From a virus: a stretch of DNA of 64,000 nucleotides. The notes beneath the pieces were generated by a model. It saw nothing but the letters and a program-made list of their open reading frames with translations, was not told the DNA's origin and did not search any database. This document shows, piece after piece, positions 585-57,492 of this stretch (position 1 is the stretch's first letter; every line of letters begins with the position of its first letter). The stretch is taken from the UHGV virus genome UHGV-1351772; one strand, written 5' to 3'. Made by a program: the position numbers and the translations under genes.

Positions 585-614
585 TACCCACTACTCGTTT
601 CGGAGTAGTGGGTA
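585..614. terminator. bidirectional rho-independent terminator between convergent genes
   Basis: 12-bp stem TACCCACTACTC/GAGTAGTGGGTA with loop GTTTCG. An A-run lies upstream and T-rich sequence downstream. Confidence 0.8.
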
Positions 615-3379: not shown

Positions 3380-3616
3380 TTAGCCGTATAGGTAATCAGT
3401 GTAAAGAACCTCCCCCTCAGGATAGTGCGTTGTACCGAGGAGTGTGGCTTCGAGGGTAACCTCTTCCACATCACCATCCGATAACAACTCGCCAGTCCAA
3501 CCTATTTCGGATGGAAGAATTGCACATGCAGCTTCTTCCGTAGGGGCTGCCACAATCATTGCGGAATATTCATCCCAACCAACGTGGTCGGTTCTTTCTA
3601 CTAGATACAAGTTCAT
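3380..3616 (-). CDS. hypothetical protein (78 aa; start moved to the internal ATG with an RBS)
   Basis: GGGAGAAAATT-ATG at 3616. The longer ORF start at 3640 has no RBS. Confidence 0.55.
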   Translation of the reverse strand: MNLYLVERTDHVGWDEYSAMIVAAPTEEAACAILPSEIGWTGELLSDGDVEEVTLEATLLGTTHYPEGEVLYTDYLYG

Positions 3617-3680
3617 AATTTTCTCCCACAGATAACACATCTCGTTTTCTGTGTTGAGAATGAACTTACTGGCTAAAATC

Positions 3681-3756
3681 TGGCGGGGGTGGGAAGTTTC
3701 GAACTCCCAACCTTCGGTTTTGGAGACCGCTGCACCACCAATTGTGCTACACCCCC
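3681..3756 (-). tRNA. tRNA-Trp (anticodon CCA), 76 nt with encoded CCA end
   Basis: Hand-folded cloverleaf. Acceptor stem is GGGGGTG/CACCCCC and D stem is GCAC/GTGC with a GG in the loop. The anticodon loop is CT-CCA-AA. T stem is GGGAG/CTTCC with loop TTCGAAA, and the discriminator is G. There is one G-A mismatch at positions 27-43. From memory, the anticodon and T arms look close to E. coli tRNA-Trp. Confidence 0.9.
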
Positions 3757-3763
3757 TAATACA

Positions 3764-4264
3764 TCAAAACAGCTTAAGTGTTTGCGTTTGACCACCGCTG
3801 TACAGGTCGTAACGTTTCGCCACTTCCACCGCAGTGGGGGCGTCAACGCCAGCACCTAATGCACCCAGGGCATAGTGAGCACCTGAGCCTATCGCATACG
3901 GCGGCTCTACAAACACGTAACTGGCGTATTTGTTGTCTTTGCACTTCGAGGCGTCGATAACGCGTCCGTCTGTCAAAACAGCAAGTACGATAAAATCAAT
4001 CTGCTCGGGATACGTCGTTTCGAATCTAACTCCACCCCGTTCGATACCGCCGAAACGTTCAAGCGTGAGTTCTTGGCGCACGGATTGCAATGCGGCGACA
4101 TCACCTGCCAAACCGATCGCTTTCACGTCTTCACCCAAAAGCTTCCACGACGTACCCTCAGGCGGCGTGTGAATCTTACGGTATTGCGTGGCAGCACTAC
4201 GTTCTTCCACGGTGACTTGACCGTCGCAAGCTAACGTCTTTCCGTCGAAAACAATCGTGGTCAT
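3764..4264 (-). CDS. HslV/proteasome beta-type N-terminal-nucleophile (Thr) peptidase homolog (166 aa)
   Basis: The N-terminus MTTIVFDGKTLACDGQVT parallels E. coli HslV MTTIV..AGDGQAT. Further matches are GLAGD (GFAGG) and AIGSGAHYALGALGAG (AIGSGGPYAQAAA). Confidence 0.65.
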   Translation of the reverse strand: MTTIVFDGKTLACDGQVTVEERSAATQYRKIHTPPEGTSWKLLGEDVKAIGLAGDVAALQSVRQELTLERFGGIERGGVRFETTYPEQIDFIVLAVLTDGRVIDASKCKDNKYASYVFVEPPYAIGSGAHYALGALGAGVDAPTAVEVAKRYDLYSGGQTQTLKLF

Positions 4265-4626
4265 GACAGATTTCCTAACTCATTGCCGACCTCCTGGTCA
4301 GCAGCTACCATCGAATTCGTGCAACGCGTAACATGTTCACGAATCGCTCGAGCCAAACCTTCACGAACGGCTACCAGGAGACACTCTCGATAGCTCGGAT
4401 AATGCGCAATAGGGCTAGGGATGTGTTCCACGCAATAACCATCGTGAACTTCCACCACTACCGTGATGTAAATCTCGACGGGTTGGTAAATCCGCACGCT
4501 CTTGATCAAATCAAGTAACGCTGGCTCCGTGCATCCCCAGTCCTCCGGGGCTTTTAACAGCACTGCCAACTCATCGAGCCTGTACTGAACATCCAATTCC
4601 ACGTTAGTGGTGTTTTTGGAATCCAT
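4261..4626 (-). CDS. hypothetical protein (121 aa; start moved to the ATG with a GGAG RBS)
   Basis: GGAGATTTTAAT-ATG at 4626. There is an ATGA overlap with the HslV-like gene. Confidence 0.6.
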   Translation of the reverse strand: MDSKNTTNVELDVQYRLDELAVLLKAPEDWGCTEPALLDLIKSVRIYQPVEIYITVVVEVHDGYCVEHIPSPIAHYPSYRECLLVAVREGLARAIREHVTRCTNSMVAADQEVGNELGNLS

Positions 4627-5486
4627 ATTAAAATCTCCTGTCGTGGTCTGTGTCACACCAACAGGAAATCCTGTAAAAAAATAATTCAGCTGCGTACCGG
4701 CGTTTCTCAACGGGAGTACGCACCCCTCTCGTCTTTGCGAGCCGTCAAGCTAGAGGACATCACACTGCCAGCGCTACCTGGAGCAGGGTCATTCGACGCA
4801 ACGTCGTAATTCGCATTTTGGCCGCACCTCTGGGAGCGTATCCCACCGTCGGCTGCCCGCAGGTAAGTTCTACGGACCTTTCGCCAACGTCGCTCCCAGA
4901 GGCTGCCACGGTTCACTCGGATTTTCTCATGTGGTCCACGCGTCACTGATAGCGCGGGTTCCCCAACACTCGTAAGTCGGGGAACGGTACCGAGCACCTG
5001 AACTCTGGGGATTCCAAAAATCCCTCGGGGTAAGTACGATTCGCAAATCGATTTTCAAACCCCATAGTAAAACAAACTCCAGTGTTAGGCTGAACGTTTT
5101 GTTTTTCCCAGTACACGGCGAAATAAATTCCATGCACTCGAAAAAACAACCCCCAAACCAACACCCGGTCAGGGGGCTTCGAGCTCTGCTGAATCTTCGC
5201 AGACAGAAATCGTGTTTGAGCTGTGAGCAGTAAACTCCTGAACTCCGAAAAATCTTCGTGGTTGGATTTGTAAATCATCCCACGCAAATCCTCCGAACAT
5301 ACCATAGGGTTTTAACGTTCGAAAAAGGGGAATGGGTTTTACCCCCCTCGGTCAGGTGTTCAGGGTAGACCCCCTACCCGATCCCCCAGGTGGGGATTTT
5401 ACCCTGGTGAATTACCCCGGGTTCGATTTTCGGATTTTCTGGAAAATACCGCTCACCGATCCCTACCCCCTCAGGGGGGTCAGACC

Positions 5487-5496
5487 GAGATCAGAT
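5487..5496 (+). repeat. left copy of the 10-bp direct repeat GAGATCAGAT
   Basis: Identical to 5718..5727. The two copies bracket the CG-block/A+T-core/CG-block unit. Confidence 0.9.
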
Positions 5497-5518
5497 CTCA
5501 TAATAAGGATCGCGCGCG

Positions 5519-5680
5519 TTTTATATATATTTATATATAATATATATTATATATAATAATTATTATATTAATAAATATATTAATATATTTATTTAAATAA
5601 ATAATTAAATAATACCTAAAGGTATTATTATTTTGATCCTAAAGGAATAATATATTTATAAATAAATATATTATACTATA
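5519..5680. repeat. A/T low-complexity core, about 93 percent A+T, with 5519-5614 being 96 nt of pure A/T
   Basis: Direct reading. It contains a perfect 24-nt palindrome at 5570-5593 (AATAAATATATTAATATATTTATT) and a hairpin AATACC-TAAA-GGTATT. It is bounded by CGCGCGCG (5511-5518) and by alternating Pu/Py sequence at 5676-5703 that includes an 18-bp perfect palindrome (5683-5700). Confidence 0.95.
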
Positions 5681-5717
5681 CGCGCGTGCGTACGCACGCG
5701 TATAAGGAAGAGATCTT

Positions 5718-5727
5718 GAGATCAGAT
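5718..5727 (+). repeat. right copy of the 10-bp direct repeat GAGATCAGAT
   Basis: Identical to 5487..5496. Confidence 0.9.
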
Positions 5728-6331
5728 TTTTGAGAGAGTTAAAAATTTAAGATCGATCCGAGAGACTTAGTGTCTCTCGAAGAGTATTAAAAAATTTAAA
5801 AGATCAAAAAACCAAAGCTAGAGAACTACTCAACCTGAATCTTCAGTGTGTGAAGATTCAGTAAGTTGATCAATCCAGCTGATCCGCTAGTACGCGAAGC
5901 GTGAATGTTTTTTTGATCGTCGCGGCGGCCGGTCCGCCGACCCGAGGGTGGGGTGGAACTGGTCGAGGGGAATGCCCCTCAGGCGCTCTCAATCGCGCTG
6001 TAACGAGTTAAACGGGGTTCTGGTACCCAAGTGTACCCCTTGAGGAGATTTTTGCGTCAAAATGCGTTCTAGAGCGTTTTACGATGGGGTGGGTTTTCGA
6101 CCCACTCAGGGATAGGGGTTGGCGTGACAGCTCGAACGACAAAATCGTGGTTTCATGGCGTTGAGTGAAAATAAATTCAAAACCCACAACCAAAAACACC
6201 CTCAAATTCTTCGTAGGAAGCTCTCTGACGAGATAAACGTGGGTAAGGGGTACGAACGTACCGCCTGGAAAGAAAAATGCGTTAGAATCGCTCTCAGCGC
6301 GTTTTTGATTTTTGGGCAAAAAAATAAAACG

Positions 6332-6351
6332 GGGGAGACTTCGGTCTCCCC
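6332..6351 (-). terminator. rho-independent terminator after CDS 6362..7486
   Basis: GGGGAGAC-TTCG-GTCTCCCC is followed on the minus strand by GTTTTATTTTTTT. Confidence 0.85.
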
Positions 6352-6361
6352 AGAATATTTT

Positions 6362-7486
6362 TTACAGAGTCGTCAGTTCTTTTGACGGATAGTACAGTTT
6401 CACATCGACCAAACTGTAACCGGTGGCGTAGAACACCTGATTTCCGACCGAAGCAATAAACCCTTCAGGGTCGATAACGTCAACCGAGAAATCGGAATCG
6501 AATAGCCAGGTTTCTTGTTCCCCTTCCCGTTCGAAAACGGCAGCGTAACGCCCGTATTCTGGGCCTCGGCGGAAACGAAACAGCGTTAATCCTGTCTCAC
6601 GTTCTAAGCCATAAATCACCCCATTTTCTTCGTAGATTTCAGCGCGATTACAGCGTGTAACCGTCAACAACGCAGGCCGTTGTGTCGGGATTGTTTTAAA
6701 CGGTGAAGGCCCATCGTATGTCGTTGAAACCCAATCACCGAGACTGTCTAACGCCAGTGCTCGATACGCGATAGGTGACTTGTAGTTACACAACCTGTTG
6801 CCCTCGGTGTACATCGTGTATTCGATGCGTAACGTAGTACCGATGATGTCGTTCAAACTCAGTTTGTAGTGCGCTAACTGGGCTTGTATACGACAGGACA
6901 GAATTGTACACAGGAAAGTGTGACCCTCTGTAGAACGGCACACAACTCCGTAATCGGTCACTGCCAGTAACGTGGCATCTGTTTTACGGACGGGTTCCAG
7001 GCGAAACACCTCATTTTCAGTTTCTACGAGGAACTGCGAAACCGCTTGGTTTCTGGATTTAGCTTTAATCGTATCGAACACATCACCCGCTTTTACGATT
7101 AACGGTTCTACCACGTTTACCTGAAACGGCAGCGGTTTAGTTGGGTATTGTCCCAACGTTGTAATCGTTACTGAGTTGAGTTCTGGGTCCGATGCGTCAG
7201 GATCACCAGACAACCAATACGTTAGCCATTTCGACAACGTCTGGGGAATGACGCGCGTGGTGTAAAACAGAATTTCGCCATGTAAACCTGCCTCTGCCAA
7301 TTCGCGTGCAAGAAACGAGTTGACCGCGTCGTAGGTACCGTTGCGCAAGATGTCCATACCCCCGACACGAACCAAATCACAAATTACGCCGTGTGGAAGA
7401 ACCCACATTTTGACGTTTTGATTTCGGTCGATGGTACCTTCGCGCAGCATTCTGTGCCAAACGGGTTTACGTAAGTAATTTCTCAT
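6362..7486 (-). CDS. hypothetical protein (374 aa)
   Basis: ATG is preceded by AAAGGAG. No motif recognised. Confidence 0.7.
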   Translation of the reverse strand: MRNYLRKPVWHRMLREGTIDRNQNVKMWVLPHGVICDLVRVGGMDILRNGTYDAVNSFLARELAEAGLHGEILFYTTRVIPQTLSKWLTYWLSGDPDASDPELNSVTITTLGQYPTKPLPFQVNVVEPLIVKAGDVFDTIKAKSRNQAVSQFLVETENEVFRLEPVRKTDATLLAVTDYGVVCRSTEGHTFLCTILSCRIQAQLAHYKLSLNDIIGTTLRIEYTMYTEGNRLCNYKSPIAYRALALDSLGDWVSTTYDGPSPFKTIPTQRPALLTVTRCNRAEIYEENGVIYGLERETGLTLFRFRRGPEYGRYAAVFEREGEQETWLFDSDFSVDVIDPEGFIASVGNQVFYATGYSLVDVKLYYPSKELTTL

Positions 7487-8945: not shown

Positions 8946-8975
8946 TAGCCAGTAACCCTAACGGGTTACTGGCTA
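8946..8975. terminator. bidirectional terminator between convergent genes
   Basis: 13-14-bp stem TAGCCAGTAACCC/GGGTTACTGGCTA with loop TAAC. It is flanked by an A-run and a T-run. Confidence 0.85.
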
Positions 8976-8992: not shown

Positions 8993-9232
8993 TCAATGGG
9001 GCCCTGACATTACCACGAGGTGTATAGAGTAGACCATATTTAGCGCATAGGTAGCTGACGAACCTGCTACCATCAGACCAAATACTGCAAATGCCTGTAC
9101 ATACCGTGTTTTTCGTAGTGGGAAACCTTGCGAACGTCCGTATTGTTTTATCGCTTGGTAACTCTCGCGGATCATTTTATACGTCGCTATCCACGAAAAG
9201 AACACAAGTAAATAGTAAATTGGAGCCATCAC
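8993..9232 (-). CDS. small membrane protein (79 aa, two hydrophobic segments)
   Basis: There is a 4-nt overlap with the terminase stop, which suggests translational coupling. Hydrophobic stretches are APIYYLLVFFSWIA and AFAVFGLMVAGSSATYAL. Confidence 0.55.
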   Translation of the reverse strand: MMAPIYYLLVFFSWIATYKMIRESYQAIKQYGRSQGFPLRKTRYVQAFAVFGLMVAGSSATYALNMVYSIHLVVMSGPH

Positions 9233-11337
9233 TTCATCCTCTGGCGTTGGATAAGCTCTCTTAAGCTTTCCATTGACGCCACGTTTTGTGTATCAGTGTT
9301 AAGTTGAGCAATGAGGGACTGGAGACGGTTACGAGCAGCCATTGCTTGAACCGGGTCTAATAACCCGTTTGTGGTTCGCACAAGACGCTCAATTTCCCCC
9401 ATCAGTTCCTGCTGTCGCGCCTCCTCCTCGAGTTGTAATTCCTCATCCACCCCTTCACGATTTTCGACTAAATTACGATTGCGCATCATCAATCGACTGT
9501 TGTTGATTTCATAATGCCCCAGGTTATTCCCAAGCAGCAATAACCACATCGCAAGTAACCAAGAAATCACGAGGTCGTCATGACCTGAAGCTTTGTGGTC
9601 AATACGACCATTTTTCTCCACGAGGTTAAGTATCTGGTCGATGAGTTCTCCGCAACGGAGTTTATCCGCGGATAAGCGCAACGCTGTGGTGAATACCTCA
9701 CCGTACAGTTTACGACGTTTTTCCTGGTCGGTTGAGAAACCGATATATTTACGGAATTTATTCCAGAACTTCTCAGCGTTACCAATAGGTCCACGGTGAT
9801 ACTCTTTGTAGAGATCGTCCGTACGTGAGTAGTCCTGAGTGATTCTCACAAATAAACGGCGATGTAAGTCCGTGACGCGAGACTGTAACTGCAGGATAAT
9901 TGCATCAGCCACAGACGAGCCAGTAGACCGTCGTTCCAGGATTAGTACCGTGTTAGGATATCGCACCATAAAATCCGCTAAATGAATCGCGAAAGAGATA
10001 ACGTTAGATTCGTTAACGGTTAATTTACCTGCATACTCTGCGGTCACAGAGTTAACAATAGACATGGCGATCGCGTCTCGACCCACCGCCTCAGAGGTAT
10101 CCAACCCGATGACGTGTCGGTCTTTGAGCTTCGTCATCATCTCCTCTTCGGTGTAGTACCAGTCGGTAACGTAGTTTTGTGGTGAAATATCTTTAAACAC
10201 AGCACGCATACGGGAAGCATTCATACGATCTGCATCTTCCGCTGAGAACGGCTTGTTCAGACCACCGGTAGTCCATTCACCCCCGAAGTCACGACGGATC
10301 TGGTCAGGGGTACCTTTGGCGTTCGCAATCATTGCCGCTAACTGCTCATCGCTGGTACCGAGCTGACGGTGGTTGTACTTCACGTAGAACATGATACGTG
10401 GGACTTCTGCCGTGGAGTTAGAACGGATGATATCAATGAGCTGTTTACGGGTTGGAATGTCGATATAGCGCTCATCCCACATAATCCCCGACGTCATCAG
10501 CTCGTACATGTACTTGCCTTCTTCCGTCGCTAAGTCACCAGGGGTTGTTGCGAATACGTTACCGTAAGGAACACCTTCCGCTTCGTTAATACGGCGAGCC
10601 GCTGTACCGGATGCCAGGGCTGCCGGTAGAATGTGGTGTACGTTTTTGGTAAAGGGGCCTTCGTCCGAGAACAGACGACCAGCGGTGAGTCCACGACCGA
10701 TACCGTTAGCAGATTCTGGGTCGTTTTGGCCGATACCCGTAATCAGTTTGTTACCCTGGGCTAAACACGCAAAAGTTTCGCGGTTATCTGGATCATCTGG
10801 ATGTGCTGGCCACAAGTAAGACGGTAGACCGTTACGTAGTTGCTTAAGTTTGTTAATGGTTTCTTCACGCAGTGCCGGTCCTTTTGTGATAAGAATCGTA
10901 CGAGAGTTTTCCAGAAACCGAATTAACCACAATAGTAATCCGCTCATCCCGACGGTTTTACCATGCTGACGGAGGAACTCGACGGCGGCGTCGATGTTGT
11001 TGAAGAAAATCCAATACATCGAAAAGTTACCACGGTCGATACGGAACGGCGACCCGTATTTCATACCGTCCGCAGGTACCCTGACGCACTCTCGAAACCA
11101 GTACCAAGGGTTTTCAGCACACTCGATGGCGATATACGCTTTCTGCTCGTCCGTTAGGTTTTCGTCAAAAGGATCGACCCCTTGCAGTAAAGGGTTATGT
11201 AAGGCGAGATGAATATAGTAGTGCTTTACACCCAGCTTTTTTAGGATATTTGCAAACTTGATAAACGATTTGTTTGTGGTTTTATCGTCAACAATAGCGC
11301 CTGGATAATAACGCCAGTCCGATTCACGTAGTATCAT
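9229..11337 (-). CDS. terminase large subunit (702 aa)
   Basis: Walker A-like LRQHGKT (compare T4 gp17 SRQLGKT) and Walker B-like RLFSDE. The size and a GAGGAG RBS fit. Confidence 0.8.
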   Translation of the reverse strand: MILRESDWRYYPGAIVDDKTTNKSFIKFANILKKLGVKHYYIHLALHNPLLQGVDPFDENLTDEQKAYIAIECAENPWYWFRECVRVPADGMKYGSPFRIDRGNFSMYWIFFNNIDAAVEFLRQHGKTVGMSGLLLWLIRFLENSRTILITKGPALREETINKLKQLRNGLPSYLWPAHPDDPDNRETFACLAQGNKLITGIGQNDPESANGIGRGLTAGRLFSDEGPFTKNVHHILPAALASGTAARRINEAEGVPYGNVFATTPGDLATEEGKYMYELMTSGIMWDERYIDIPTRKQLIDIIRSNSTAEVPRIMFYVKYNHRQLGTSDEQLAAMIANAKGTPDQIRRDFGGEWTTGGLNKPFSAEDADRMNASRMRAVFKDISPQNYVTDWYYTEEEMMTKLKDRHVIGLDTSEAVGRDAIAMSIVNSVTAEYAGKLTVNESNVISFAIHLADFMVRYPNTVLILERRSTGSSVADAIILQLQSRVTDLHRRLFVRITQDYSRTDDLYKEYHRGPIGNAEKFWNKFRKYIGFSTDQEKRRKLYGEVFTTALRLSADKLRCGELIDQILNLVEKNGRIDHKASGHDDLVISWLLAMWLLLLGNNLGHYEINNSRLMMRNRNLVENREGVDEELQLEEEARQQELMGEIERLVRTTNGLLDPVQAMAARNRLQSLIAQLNTDTQNVASMESLRELIQRQRMK

Positions 11338-22364: not shown

Positions 22365-22393
22365 GGGCTAGTCTATTCGATGAATAGACTAGC
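22365..22393 (-). terminator. rho-independent terminator after CDS 22403..22954
   Basis: 13-bp stem GGCTAGTCTATTC/GAATAGACTAGCC, followed on the minus strand by CACCTTTATTTT. Confidence 0.8.
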
Positions 22394-22402
22394 CGAATGG
22401 TT

Positions 22403-48404: not shown

Positions 48405-48432
48405 TACCCTACTCCTAGTCAGGAGTAGGGTA
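48405..48432 (-). terminator. rho-independent terminator after the CYTH gene
   Basis: 12-bp stem TACCCTACTCCT/AGGAGTAGGGTA with loop AGTC, followed on the minus strand by TTTTCATTTTTT. Confidence 0.85.
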
Positions 48433-56697: not shown

Positions 56698-57486
56698 ATG
56701 AATGTAAATCCACTTGCAGCGTTATCTAGCTTCGCCGCTAAAGCGTCTGCAATCTTACCGAAAGGGTTTAGTGGCCCTCAACAAGAGATTGCATTAACCA
56801 CTTATGACGAGATGTCGGACGTTTCCAAGTGGATGCAACAAGAAAAATTCCTACACTTTGCGGGAATGTTGGTTATCGTTCCACCTGGGTTTAATACCTA
56901 CGTGATGGATCACTTGAACCGCTTAGAATCTGTATGGAGTTCACTACAAAACATCTATACGGGTATTCTGCTACCGGTCGATAAACAACTTTCGGCCCTT
57001 ACACATGATGTGGGGGTACTGTCATTACCGATTGGTTTCCGTTACAAAAACGTTAATTTACCGTTACGTAATGTTAACCCGAAAGACCTGGTTAACTTAT
57101 TAGCGAAATCGTACACTAATAACGTTATTGACCAGCGACCAATTGAGAAGACGTACCACAGCGCGTCTGAGATTGACGTTGCGTTCAATCGTGCTAAAGC
57201 CCTGAACGTTGAAATTACGAAACGTTTACGGACGAATATCGACAAGTCAATCGAGTCCATTCGCACTACGTCAGAAATCTTGTCCGAACAAAACATTCAT
57301 CCGAATGTAGCAAAAGAACTGACGATGATGTTAGATTTTGCATCCGATTGGGTGGAGCTGTTTGGTCTGTTCATGAAACAGGTTAACGAGTTAATCGAAT
57401 GCCTGAACGTTACTGCCGAACGCTTAAAAGCGCTTAAGGCAAACAAAAATAAAAAAGTAAAGTTACCCCTAGACCGTGTGGTCTAG
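56698..57486 (+). CDS. hypothetical protein (262 aa)
   Basis: GAGG RBS. The stop codon is embedded in a terminator hairpin. Confidence 0.65.
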   Translation: MNVNPLAALSSFAAKASAILPKGFSGPQQEIALTTYDEMSDVSKWMQQEKFLHFAGMLVIVPPGFNTYVMDHLNRLESVWSSLQNIYTGILLPVDKQLSALTHDVGVLSLPIGFRYKNVNLPLRNVNPKDLVNLLAKSYTNNVIDQRPIEKTYHSASEIDVAFNRAKALNVEITKRLRTNIDKSIESIRTTSEILSEQNIHPNVAKELTMMLDFASDWVELFGLFMKQVNELIECLNVTAERLKALKANKNKKVKLPLDRVV

Positions 57487-57492
57487 GGGTAA
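57463..57492. terminator. bidirectional terminator between convergent genes
   Basis: 13-bp stem TTACCCCTAGACC/GGTCTAGGGGTAA. Confidence 0.8.

What the first reader, a model, noticed from the sequence alone, without database searches (positions are those of the whole stretch)
4711..5330. GC-rich segment with long-range perfect helices suggesting a large structured RNA
A perfect 12-nt inverted repeat CCTCTGGGAGCG (4827-4838) / CGCTCCCAGAGG (4891-4902) encloses 52 nt. An outer pairing GAGCCGT (4739-4745) / ACGGTTC (4908-4914) works with a G-U wobble only in the plus sense. Further stems include GTTCCCC/GGGGAAC (4958-4985) and GGGTAG/CTACCC (5363-5379). This nesting is more than isolated terminator hairpins would give.
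Basis: seen in the sequence. Interest (0 to 1): 0.5.

Follow-up and report, generated by a model that had tools for sequence, protein, structure and literature searches.

The report
Conserved structured leader RNA, jumbo phage
The flagged segment is part of a roughly 320-420-nucleotide, many-helix RNA encoded on the opposite (minus) strand, conserved by compensatory base changes across SPN3US-like giant phages, matching no catalogued RNA family, and of unknown function.

Summary
The window is an uncultivated SPN3US/Asesino-like jumbo phage. The finding lies in a 1.7 kb gene-free gap next to a pure A/T stretch.

The 12-bp helix (4827-4838/4891-4902) is real. In Seoulvirus, Erskinevirus, Machinavirus, Wellingtonvirus and metagenomic relatives it is replaced by different but still complementary sequences.

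It is one helix (P2) of a multi-domain RNA, P0-P8, about 5105->4684. Several helices covary strongly:
- P2 domain: 13 of 19 pairs have compensatory changes.
- 3' domain: 14 of 28 pairs, with 97% of cells paired.
- In both, 0 of 500 shuffles reach the observed values.

Loop and junction motifs are invariant, and the P8 tetraloop is always GNRA.

That 7-bp outer pairing is not conserved and clashes with P1 and P6.

The ORFs here are broken by frameshifts in close relatives. Rfam 15 and the searchable literature have nothing matching.

The element always sits just upstream of the first gene of the leftward operon. It is usually followed by a covarying hairpin that sequesters the ribosome-binding site. 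Best reading: a structured 5' leader. A stand-alone RNA is not excluded.

The parts
4684..5105 (-). Conserved structured RNA core (P0 to P8), read 5105->4684
   Evidence: It is homologous across five or more phage lineages. Covariation is shown. The minus-strand fold has z -3.5. No Rfam match.
5069..5105 (-). P0 hairpin. Stem AAAACAAAAC/GUUUGUUUU plus CAG/CUG, with a conserved loop CCUAACA (5083-5089). A conserved UAUG follows at 5063-5066.
   Evidence: The hairpin keeps the same loop motif but has different stems in the window clade, Seoulvirus, Erskinevirus, Machinavirus and L013/L105/L108. Coordinates.
5008..5063 (-). Two lineage-specific hairpins, Ha (5027-5063) and Hb (5008-5024)
   Evidence: In L006, Hb changes from GGGAUU/AAUCCC to GGGGUU/AACCCC, a compensatory change.
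4990..5002 (-). Conserved UUCAGGU junction and the P1 5' arm (GGUGCUCGG, 4990-4998)
   Evidence: P1 forms in 16 of 16 lineages and its inner helix covaries.
4910..4920 (-). P1 3' arm (CCGAGUGAACC)
   Evidence: The P1 domain varies in length from 33 to 110 nt between lineages.
4958..4985 (-).
   Evidence: Present in the window clade with some wobble or mismatch variants. Other lineages have different hairpins at this position.
4817..4912 (-).
   Evidence: Nine lineages fold independently to the same architecture. On A7, 10 of 19 pairs are compensatory, 89.9% of cells pair, and 0 of 500 shuffles match. On the CM alignment A9, 13 of 19 pairs are compensatory. The window scores 88 bits against model R2.
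4794..4806 (-). P3 hairpin CGACG-UUG-CGUCG
   Evidence: The middle pair is A-U, G.U or G-C in different lineages, and the closing pair is G-C or U.G.
4765..4786 (-). P4 hairpin, variable in sequence
   Evidence: 5 of 7 pairs covary among the other lineages. The window clade forms its own hairpin two columns out of register.
4728..4741 (-). P6 hairpin CUCG-CAAAGA-CGAG, inside the invariant block CUUGNCGGCUCG...AGACGAGAGGGG
   Evidence: Invariant in all 18 distinct sequences. It therefore carries no covariation information.
4691..4722 (-). P7 (4715-4722/4691-4698), a 2x2 internal loop, and P8 (4701-4712), which is capped by a GNRA tetraloop (GAGA, 4705-4708)
   Evidence: 8 of the 12 pairs in P7+P8 are compensatory and 99.4% of cells pair. 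The loops are GAGA, GUGA, GGGA or GCGA. The window scores 89.9 bits against model R1.
4633..4683 (-). U-rich linker (4671-4683) and hairpin P9 (about 4633-4670). The 3' arm of P9 contains the Shine-Dalgarno sequence CAGGAGA (4634-4640) of the first gene.
   Evidence: RNAfold predicts a hairpin that sequesters the Shine-Dalgarno sequence, built from different sequences, in most lineages. There is a weak sub-threshold Rfam hit to Mu-gpT-DE (20.1 bits against a gathering score of 49).
4261..4626 (-). First downstream gene (121 aa, ATG at 4626), which occupies a variable gene slot
   Evidence: Only 42% amino-acid identity in L006, while the RNA is 95% and the next gene 98% identical. No Pfam or PHROG hit.
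5099..5177 (-). Terminator-like hairpin T1 with a U-run (5141-5177). It overlaps a second hairpin, H2 (5099-5149), that pairs the U-run with a downstream A-run.
   Evidence: Compensatory changes in L006. Analogous hairpin-plus-U-run modules occur in SPN3US and phiEaH2.
5178..5488 (-).
   Evidence: 78% identity to L006, against 95% for the core. The hairpins are kept within the clade. Not alignable across genera.

Best explanation
Minus-strand positions about 5105->4684 encode a conserved, modular, multi-helix RNA of about 320 nt (P1-P8) or about 420 nt (with P0). It is specific to SPN3US-like jumbo phages.

Shown:
- The helices are kept by compensatory substitutions, while loops and junctions (CCUAACA, UUCAGGU, ACCGUGGCAGC, AACUUACC, GGCGGCUCGGAAAGACGAGAGGGG, a GNRA tetraloop) stay fixed.
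- The sequence evolves more slowly than neighbouring synonymous sites.
- It is not protein-coding.
- There is one copy in this 64 kb window, and one match in each related locus or contig examined.

Inferred:
- It is the 5' leader of the leftward operon (variable first gene, HslV-like peptidase, tRNA-Trp).
- It acts in cis on expression of the first gene.
- The universally retained 3' module (P6-P8) lies 28-83 nt before the start codon in the lineages where a start could be assigned. In most lineages it is followed by a U-rich linker and a hairpin (P9) that sequesters the ribosome-binding site.
- The large upstream domains would act as a sensing or binding platform, for a protein, the ribosome or a small molecule, that sets whether P9 opens or how stable the mRNA is.

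Confidence by step: structured minus-strand RNA, about 0.9. Cis-acting leader function, about 0.5.
For: Homology and anatomy.

Covariation:
- P2 domain: 89.9-91.7% of cells paired, 10-13 of 19 pairs compensatory, 0 of 500 shuffles as high, slid controls at most 54%.
- 3' domain: 97.3% paired, 14 of 28 pairs compensatory, 0 of 500, slid controls at most 44%.
- P1 forms in 16 of 16 lineages with different inner helices.
- P0 stems differ around a fixed loop.
- Nine lineages fold independently to the same P2 rod.

Strand: 57 G.U cells against 2 A.C cells. Minus-strand z is -3.5 to -4.3, plus-strand z -1.5 to -2.7.

Non-coding: the ORFs 4707-4997 and 4943-5305 are frameshifted in close relatives.

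Purifying selection: the core is 95% identical to L006, against 86% at third codon positions of the neighbouring p166 gene and 49% in the 374-aa gene.

Leader model:
- The element has the same orientation as the first ORF and lies directly upstream of it in every lineage.
- P9 sequesters the Shine-Dalgarno sequence using different sequences in most lineages.
- In Machinavirus only 31 nt separate P7 from the ATG, which leaves no room for a separate promoter.
- P6-P8 stays attached to the gene even when an HNH cassette (Kwan) or a deletion (pEa_SNUABM_6) disrupts the upstream domains.
Against: - There are no expression data, so transcript ends are unknown.
- A 320-420 nt ornate structure is much more than RBS sequestration needs.
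- P9 is absent in Machinavirus and SPAsTU (28-31 nt between P7 and the start). L105 and L108 have long spacers, but no start was assigned in L105, and in L108 the folded hairpin ends a few nt before the ATG without clearly covering a Shine-Dalgarno sequence.
- The U-rich+UUAC motif before P9 could be a phage early promoter. phiKZ early promoters are AT-rich and centred near -10 (PMC7598289) and have a T-rich upstream motif (PMC8244752). In that case the mRNA would start after the RNA, and the RNA would be a separate transcript.
- The first gene differs between lineages, so no single regulated function is evident.
- P6 and several junctions never vary, which says nothing for or against pairing there.
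- The shuffle control does not correct for relatedness. The slid controls and independent folds do address this.
Confidence: 0.55

Rival explanations
1. The element is a stand-alone, trans-acting stable RNA. It could be a scaffold of a ribonucleoprotein, a decoy, or a ribozyme-like RNA. It would be made from its own promoter upstream of P0 and would end at or be processed after P7. The neighbouring gene would have its own promoter in the U-rich+UUAC motif.
For: - Its size, modular ornate architecture, invariant loops and GNRA tetraloop resemble large stand-alone RNAs more than typical leaders.
- The downstream gene is not conserved.
- The U-rich+UUAC+hairpin module also occurs at the far end of the non-coding region in SPN3US, phiEaH2 and Machinavirus, as a repeated promoter-like unit would.
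- Early promoters of phiKZ-like phages are AT-rich motifs near -10 (PMC7598289).
- In the window clade, a U7-9 run follows P7 after 9 nt.
Against: - There is no conserved terminator after P7. SPN3US has AAAAUUU there instead.
- Machinavirus has only 31 nt between P7 and the ATG.
- P6-P8 is never separated from the ORF start.
- Natural loss of P2-P4 (pEa_SNUABM_6) and an HNH insertion (Kwan) are tolerated. This argues against an essential single-unit fold.
Confidence: 0.3
2. The element is associated with a replication origin. It would be either an RNA that primes or regulates initiation at the adjacent 160-bp A/T unwinding-type stretch, or DNA hairpins that act when the region is single-stranded.
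For: - It lies about 420-840 nt from a pure A/T stretch (5520-5680) flanked by GC clamps and GATC clusters. The flanking block 5489-5520 is more than 90% conserved across genera.
- Public records and contigs repeatedly begin or end at this stretch.
Against: - The minus-strand RNA is transcribed away from the A/T stretch.
- At least one terminator-like hairpin lies between them.
- Heavy use of G.U pairs and GNRA tetraloops points to RNA rather than DNA.
- The 3' module tracks the gene start rather than the A/T stretch. The spacing to the A/T stretch ranges from about 170 to about 540 nt to P1.
Confidence: 0.08
3. There is nothing special here: chance inverted repeats, ordinary terminators, or an unannotated small protein gene.
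For: - A single 12-nt inverted repeat is expected 0.56 times per window by chance.
- Mechanical ORFs of 96 and 120 aa overlap the region.
- One true terminator-like hairpin exists at 5141-5177.
Against: - Covariation is seen in P0, P1, P2, P2b, P3, P4, P7 and P8 across lineages with 57-79% column identity.
- The ORFs are broken by 1-nt indels in relatives that are 94-98% identical.
- There are no Pfam or PHROG hits.
- P2 has a 52-nt interior and no U-tract.
Confidence: 0.03

Closest known systems
GOLLD and ROOL large ornate RNAs (Rfam; description from my own knowledge)
   Same: They are large, multi-helix RNAs of unknown function that are encoded by phages or prophages, often near tRNA genes. 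They were recognised by covariation rather than by experiment.
   Different: There is no sequence or structure match at an E-value up to 10. This RNA is smaller (320-420 nt, against about 580-800). It is confined to SPN3US-like enterobacterial jumbo phages and always abuts the start of an ORF.
Riboswitch, T-box or ribosomal-protein-leader type cis-regulatory 5' leaders
   Same: It has the same orientation as an ORF and lies directly upstream of it. It combines a conserved sensor-like domain with covarying stems and fixed junctions and a more variable downstream hairpin that sequesters the Shine-Dalgarno sequence.
   Different: No known class matches. The regulated gene is not conserved. The expression platform is missing in some lineages. 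No ligand or partner is known.
Mu-gpT-DE RNA (RF03012)
   Same: Only the P9 part resembles it. Both are hairpins whose 3' arm is ...CCACGACAGGAGAU plus the start codon. The match is close in sequence over about 28 nt.
   Different: The score is 20.1 bits against a gathering score of 49 (E 0.14), so it is not a member. It covers only 4626-4666, not the flagged helices. Other lineages have different P9 sequences.
phi29 pRNA and ColE1 RNA II (phage or plasmid RNAs used in packaging or replication priming; from my own knowledge)
   Same: These are structured RNAs of a few hundred nucleotides, encoded near a genome end or origin, next to packaging or replication functions. Here the terminase gene is about 4.5 kb away and an A/T-rich stretch about 0.4 kb away.
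   Different: There is no sequence or architectural similarity and no evidence of multimerising loop-loop complementarity. Transcription runs away from the A/T stretch.
Promoter-early stem-loop (PeSL) cassettes of T4-type phages (from my own knowledge; not checked here)
   Same: A repeated promoter-like U/T-rich motif plus stem-loop flanks a slot in which unrelated early ORFs are exchanged. Here the U-rich+UUAC+hairpin module occurs at both ends of the non-coding region, and the first gene is variable.
   Different: PeSLs are short. They do not include a conserved 320-nt structured domain.

Membership tests
Any Rfam 15 family (4227 models) | A score at or above the family's gathering threshold | tested here: not met
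   Only tRNA passes, both in the window and in 10 related loci. With E up to 10 over 4500-6400 there are only chance-level hits, such as HDV-like at 15.6 bits and Mu-gpT-DE at 20.1.
Evolutionarily conserved structured RNA (generic) | Helices are kept by compensatory substitutions across homologs, above shuffled and slid controls | tested here: met
   Between 10 and 14 pairs per domain have double changes. 0 of 500 shuffles match. Slid registers give 31-54% paired, against 90-97% for the true register.
Evolutionarily conserved structured RNA (generic) | Strand asymmetry: G.U pairs tolerated, A.C avoided | tested here: met
   41 G.U against 1 A.C on A5, and 16 against 1 on A7, on the minus strand.
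Evolutionarily conserved structured RNA (generic) | The RNA is actually transcribed | not testable with these tools
   No transcriptome of SPN3US-like phages was found.
Intrinsic terminator | A GC-rich hairpin with a short loop, immediately followed by a U-tract | tested here: not met
   P2 has a 52-nt structured interior and no U-tract, and the scan lists no terminator there. A separate hairpin at 5141-5177 does have this form.
Protein-coding gene | The reading frame is conserved in relatives | tested here: not met
   The 96-aa and 120-aa ORFs have stops or frameshifts in L004, L006, L015-L018. No Pfam or PHROG hits.
Cis-regulatory 5' leader (riboswitch-like) | Same strand as an ORF and directly upstream of it in all homologs | tested here: met
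Cis-regulatory 5' leader (riboswitch-like) | An expression platform: a hairpin or terminator that sequesters the Shine-Dalgarno sequence and is coupled to the conserved domain | tested here: inconclusive
   P9 sequesters the Shine-Dalgarno sequence in the window clade, Seoulvirus, Erskinevirus, Wellingtonvirus and L013. It is absent in Machinavirus and SPAsTU and unclear in L105/L108. No alternative pairing to the conserved domain was identified.
Cis-regulatory 5' leader (riboswitch-like) | A defined ligand or binding partner | not testable with these tools
   None can be inferred. The downstream gene varies between lineages.
GOLLD/ROOL-type large ornate phage RNA | A match to the family covariance model | tested here: not met
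   No hit, even at E up to 10.

The most novel reading that the evidence does not exclude
This is a new class of large ornate RNA specific to SPN3US-like, phiKZ-related jumbo phages. It would work as more than a leader, for example as a trans-acting ribonucleoprotein scaffold, a ribozyme, or an RNA tied to genome-end or origin function. Its invariant loops (CCUAACA, AACUUACC, the GGAAAGA hairpin, a GNGA tetraloop) would be contact sites.
Probability: 0.25. Interest if true: 0.8.

Novelty: new variant of a known kind. Interest (0 to 1): 0.66.

Why it matters
SPN3US is a genetic model for giant phiKZ-related phages. These phages carry their own RNA polymerases, and some relatives enclose their DNA in a protein nucleus. 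How they control their first transcripts is largely unknown, and a 2026 review mentions non-coding RNAs only in passing (PMC13282480).

This is a 320-420 nt RNA with strong covariation and invariant loops. There is one copy in this window and one match in each related locus examined. It sits at the conventional start of the genome, beside a candidate origin and in front of a swappable early gene.

That makes it a concrete, testable handle:
- Isolates exist (SPN3US, phiEaH2, Asesino, Huxley).
- Natural variants exist too: pEa_SNUABM_6 lacks P2-P4, and Kwan has an HNH cassette inside the RNA.

If it is only a leader, it is still an unusually large and conserved one. If it acts in trans, it adds a new large-RNA class to phage biology.

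Tried and rejected
- Megablast of 3600-6400 against phage records found no match. Sensitive blastn found only short conserved blocks.
- Rfam at gathering and at permissive thresholds gave nothing.
- The sigma-70 and terminator scan was at chance level. The one sigma-70-like site overlaps the P8 loop, which varies between lineages.
- I tested the idea that TTTAC-N(10-18)-GTRTG is a general promoter. The only intergenic occurrence in the window is the one beside this RNA. WWTTTTTACRG is not enriched (13 found, 15 expected). There is no recurrent intergenic 9-mer. The supposed spacer is complementary to the Shine-Dalgarno sequence in each lineage, so it is better read as hairpin P9.
- I looked for a target complementary to the P2b loop (GGTAAGTT). 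There are six hits against 2.6 expected, none informative.
- The invariant P6 pattern hit 34 bacterial or archaeal genome contigs. By my own estimate about 35 are expected by chance. Of the 27 scored with model R1, one reached 90 bits (L138, probably a mis-binned phage contig). 16 others were listed at 13-19 bits and the remaining 10 gave no match up to E=1. Seven (L141-L147) were not scored.
- More distant phage contigs carrying the HslV-like gene (L022-L093) have neither the 3' module nor the P2 domain.
- RNase P, tmRNA, 6S, group I/II intron domain V, hammerhead and the 11-nt GAAA receptor were considered from memory and dropped. There is no Rfam signal, and their defining motifs are absent or not conserved.
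- Literature searches for SPN3US transcriptomes, for jumbo-phage structured RNAs and for the signature sequences found nothing relevant.
Full report
**Context.** The window carries typical jumbo-phage genes. Its large terminase (9229-11337, minus strand) is 81-85% identical to those of Erwinia phages Asesino and phiEaH2 and Salmonella phage SPN3US. No phage record matches the DNA closely. Near-identical metagenomic contigs of about 220-229 kb exist.

The finding lies in a gene-free gap of about 1.7 kb. On one side is a 121-aa gene (4261-4626, minus strand, ATG at 4626 with an RBS). On the other is a 374-aa gene (6362-7486, minus strand). Downstream on the minus strand come an HslV-like peptidase (3764-4264) and tRNA-Trp (3681-3756). 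The homologous gap is unannotated in SPN3US (record positions 56-1131), MET_P1_082_240 and Asesino.

**Checking the observation.**
- A perfect 12-nt inverted repeat with a loop of 3-100 nt is expected 0.56 times per window under a first-order Markov model. It is suggestive but not decisive.
- It is the only non-A/T repeat of that kind with a long (52-nt) interior. The other five are short-loop hairpins, mostly in gaps between ORFs.
- Folding 4711-5330 gives -196 kcal/mol (z -2.7) on the plus strand and -247 kcal/mol (z -4.3) on the minus strand.
- For the conserved core, 4684-5105, the minus strand gives z -3.5 (0 of 100 shuffles as good) and the plus strand z -1.5 (8 of 100).

**Not coding.** The ORFs 4707-4997 and 4943-5305 (minus strand) acquire stops through 1-nt indels in relatives that are 94-98% identical in DNA. 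They have no Pfam or PHROG hits.

**Conservation.** Eight close relatives align over the whole gap. The core from P1 to P8 is 95% identical to L006 and L017. Third codon positions are 86-90% identical in the adjacent p166 gene and 49% in the 374-aa gene. The first downstream gene is only 42% identical in protein. The core is therefore under purifying selection as a non-coding sequence.

**Homologs in other genera.** I anchored on the invariant GACGAGAGGGG and aligned 22 distinct sequences. The same collinear element is present in:
- Seoulvirus (SPN3US-like, SPAsTU)
- Erskinevirus (Asesino, phiEaH2)
- Machinavirus (Huxley, pEa_SNUABM_10)
- Wellingtonvirus (pEa_SNUABM_11, Kwan)
- several metagenomic lineages (L013, L105, L108)

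Sequence motifs stay fixed: UUCAGGU, ACCGUGGCAGC, (G)AACUUACC, GGUGCGGCCA, GAAUUCGGCGUUGCGUCGA, AUCUUGGCGGCUCGGAAAGACGAGAGGGG and GCUGAAU. The segments between them change while remaining self-complementary.

- The window's CCUCUGGGAGCG/CGCUCCCAGAGG becomes GCCAGAG/CUCUGGC in SPN3US, CCCCAGGG/CCCUGGGG in SPAsTU, CUCCAGA-U-GCGGG/CCUGC-UCUGGGG in Asesino, CCUCA-C-GGGAGA/UCUCCCUGGGG in Machinavirus and CCUCAGGGGC/GCUCCUGAGG in L013.
- Within the window's own clade, the pair at A-U becomes G.U (L006, L018) and then G-C (L017).
- Nine lineages folded separately all give the same rod. It consists of a closing helix P2.0 (UGGC/GCCA, covarying to UGGU/ACCA and CGGU/ACCG), then P2, an inner helix P2a, and an apical hairpin P2b that presents the invariant loop AACUUAC.
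- On the MAFFT alignment, 89.9% of cells pair and 10 of 19 pairs have double changes. No shuffle out of 500 reaches this, and slid registers pair at most 54%.
- On a covariance-model alignment of 19 distinct sequences, 91.7% of cells pair and 13 of 19 pairs have double changes. That alignment leans towards the model, but it agrees with the MAFFT result.

**Other helices.**
- In the 3' domain, 97.3% of cells pair and 14 of 28 pairs have double changes. No shuffle out of 500 reaches this, and slid registers pair at most 44%.
- P3 (CGRCG-UUG-CGUCG), P4 and especially P7 (8 bp) covary.
- P8 is a 4-bp stem (CGUU/AACG or CGCU/AGCG) capped by GAGA, GUGA, GGGA or GCGA, which is always a GNRA loop.
- P6 (CUCG-GAAAGA-CGAG) never varies, so it is uninformative about pairing.
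- P1 forms in all 16 lineages tested. It has a constant GGU/ACC and a changing inner helix: CUCGG/CCGAG, AUCUGGC/GCCGGGU, UCGGUC/GACCGG, CUUGUC/GACAAG, CCUGUC/GACGGG. It encloses 33-110 nt.
- P0, upstream, is a long hairpin with a fixed loop CCUAACA and different stems.

**Strand.** Across the counted helices there are 57 G.U cells and 2 A.C cells on the minus strand. On the plus strand these would be mismatches. Together with the GNRA loops and the fold energies, this puts the RNA on the minus strand, the same strand as the flanking genes.

It is 7 of 7 in plus sense and 6 of 7 in minus sense, but only in the window clade. Elsewhere it falls to 4-6 of 7 without compensation. Its two arms belong to P1/P2.0 and to P6, so I regard it as coincidental.

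**Distribution.**
- A model of P6-P8 (R1) finds one copy in the window (4681-4756, 89.9 bits). It finds none in 70 more distant phage contigs that carry the HslV-like gene. The P2 model (R2) behaves the same way.
- An exact-pattern scan of IMG/VR finds 16 contigs, all jumbo-phage sized or fragments of such phages.
- The same pattern hits 34 bacterial or archaeal contigs, about the number I estimate by chance. Of the 27 scored with R1, one scores as real (L138, probably a mis-binned phage fragment).
- Rfam 15 has no matching family for the window or for ten relatives.
- I found no paper that describes the element or prints its signature sequences.

**Modularity.**
- pEa_SNUABM_6 lacks P2, P3 and half of P4, through a deletion of about 150 nt at a TAGCC microhomology.
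- Kwan and Wellington carry an HNH endonuclease cassette, with its own terminator-like hairpin, between P4 and P6. pEa_SNUABM_11 does not.
- In both cases P6-P8 remains directly in front of the first ORF.

**Relation to the gene.** After P7 comes GCUGAAU, then a U-rich run ending in UUAC(A/G), and then in most lineages a hairpin (P9) whose 3' arm is the Shine-Dalgarno sequence. The arm sequences differ between lineages: window UUUCCUGUUGG/CCACGACAGGAGA, SPN3US AUUCUGCGU/ACGGAGAAU, Kwan GGUUAGUUCCU/AAGGAGCUAACC, pEa_SNUABM_11 CCUUGGG/CCUCAAGG. Machinavirus and SPAsTU have only 28-31 nt between P7 and the start codon and lack P9. That leaves no room for a separate promoter, so co-transcription is likely at least there.

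**Interpretation.** The structured RNA on the minus strand is well supported (about 0.9). Its function is inferred.
- I favour a cis-acting 5' leader that controls translation or stability of the first, swappable gene of the leftward operon (about 0.5). The reasons are its constant position and orientation, the retention of P6-P8 next to the ORF, and P9.
- The main rival (about 0.3) is a stand-alone RNA. In that reading the U-rich+UUAC motif is an early promoter for the gene. phiKZ-type early promoters are AT-rich near -10 and have a T-rich upstream motif (PMC7598289, PMC8244752). The same motif-plus-hairpin module recurs at the other end of the non-coding region in SPN3US, phiEaH2 and Machinavirus.
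- A role tied to the neighbouring A/T stretch, which is a candidate origin, is possible but less likely. Chance or coding explanations are contradicted.

Positions 5105-5330 hold a terminator-like hairpin with a U-run (5141-5177). That U-run can also pair with a downstream A-run (H2, 5099-5149). Further hairpins there are conserved only within the clade, and compensatory changes are seen in L006. SPN3US and phiEaH2 have two or three analogous hairpin-plus-U-run modules. Whether these end upstream transcripts or belong to one longer RNA cannot be decided without expression data.

Noticed in passing
window 5489-5760: There are 160 bp of pure A/T (5520-5680) between CGCGCGCG and ACGCGCGTGCGTACGCACGCG, with clusters of GATC on both sides. 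The block 5489-5520 is more than 90% identical across genera. Several public records and metagenome contigs begin or end at this stretch (SPN3US position 1, L005, L007, L018-L021). It could be a replication origin or unwinding element, a physical genome end, or merely a point where assemblies break.
   Followed up: partly
window 4261-4626 (-): The first gene after the RNA occupies a variable slot. It is 42% identical in L006, while the RNA (95%) and the next gene (98%) are nearly unchanged. Other lineages carry unrelated ORFs there, or none. It has no Pfam or PHROG hit. This pattern is typical of fast-evolving early or anti-defence genes.
   Followed up: partly
L008 (Erwinia phage Kwan) 2836-3496: An HNH endonuclease gene (gp291), preceded by its own terminator-like hairpin, is inserted inside the RNA between P4 and P6. 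The sister phage pEa_SNUABM_11 (L095) lacks it. The annotated gp290 on the opposite strand overlaps the P2 domain and is probably spurious.
   Followed up: partly
L096 (Erwinia phage pEa_SNUABM_6) about 1440-1460: A natural deletion of about 150 nt at a TAGCC microhomology removes P2, P3 and half of P4. P0, P1 and P5-P8 remain intact.
   Followed up: yes
window 4626-4666 (-): This is the 3' half of the hairpin that sequesters the ribosome-binding site. It is nearly identical over about 28 nt to the consensus of the Rfam motif Mu-gpT-DE (ACAC.AG.CCACGACAGGAGAU..A.AUG) but scores only 20 bits against a gathering score of 49.
   Followed up: no
window 3764-4264 (-) and 3681-3756 (-): An HslV-family Ntn peptidase homolog (N-terminus MTTI, phrog_1040) is followed by tRNA-Trp(CCA). 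This pair follows the RNA in most lineages.
   Followed up: partly
window 5330-5410: There are repeated GGG-UAAAAY-CCC units (minus strand GGGUAAAAUCCCC and GGGGUAAAACCC) and repeated GGGAUCGG motifs upstream of the core. GGGAUCGG also occurs in Machinavirus.
   Followed up: no
window 585-614, 8946-8975, 22366-22394, 48405-48432, 57463-57492: These are five short-loop hairpins with perfect arms of at least 12 nt, mostly in gaps between long ORFs. Three share a TACCC start. They may be a phage-specific terminator type.
   Followed up: no
L138 (contig JAEWFE010000254.1, labelled Bacillota MAG): This 13.7-kb contig carries both the P2 domain (85.5 bits) and the 3' module (90.4 bits), with the same model scores as L017. 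It is most likely a jumbo-phage fragment binned into a bacterial MAG.
   Followed up: partly
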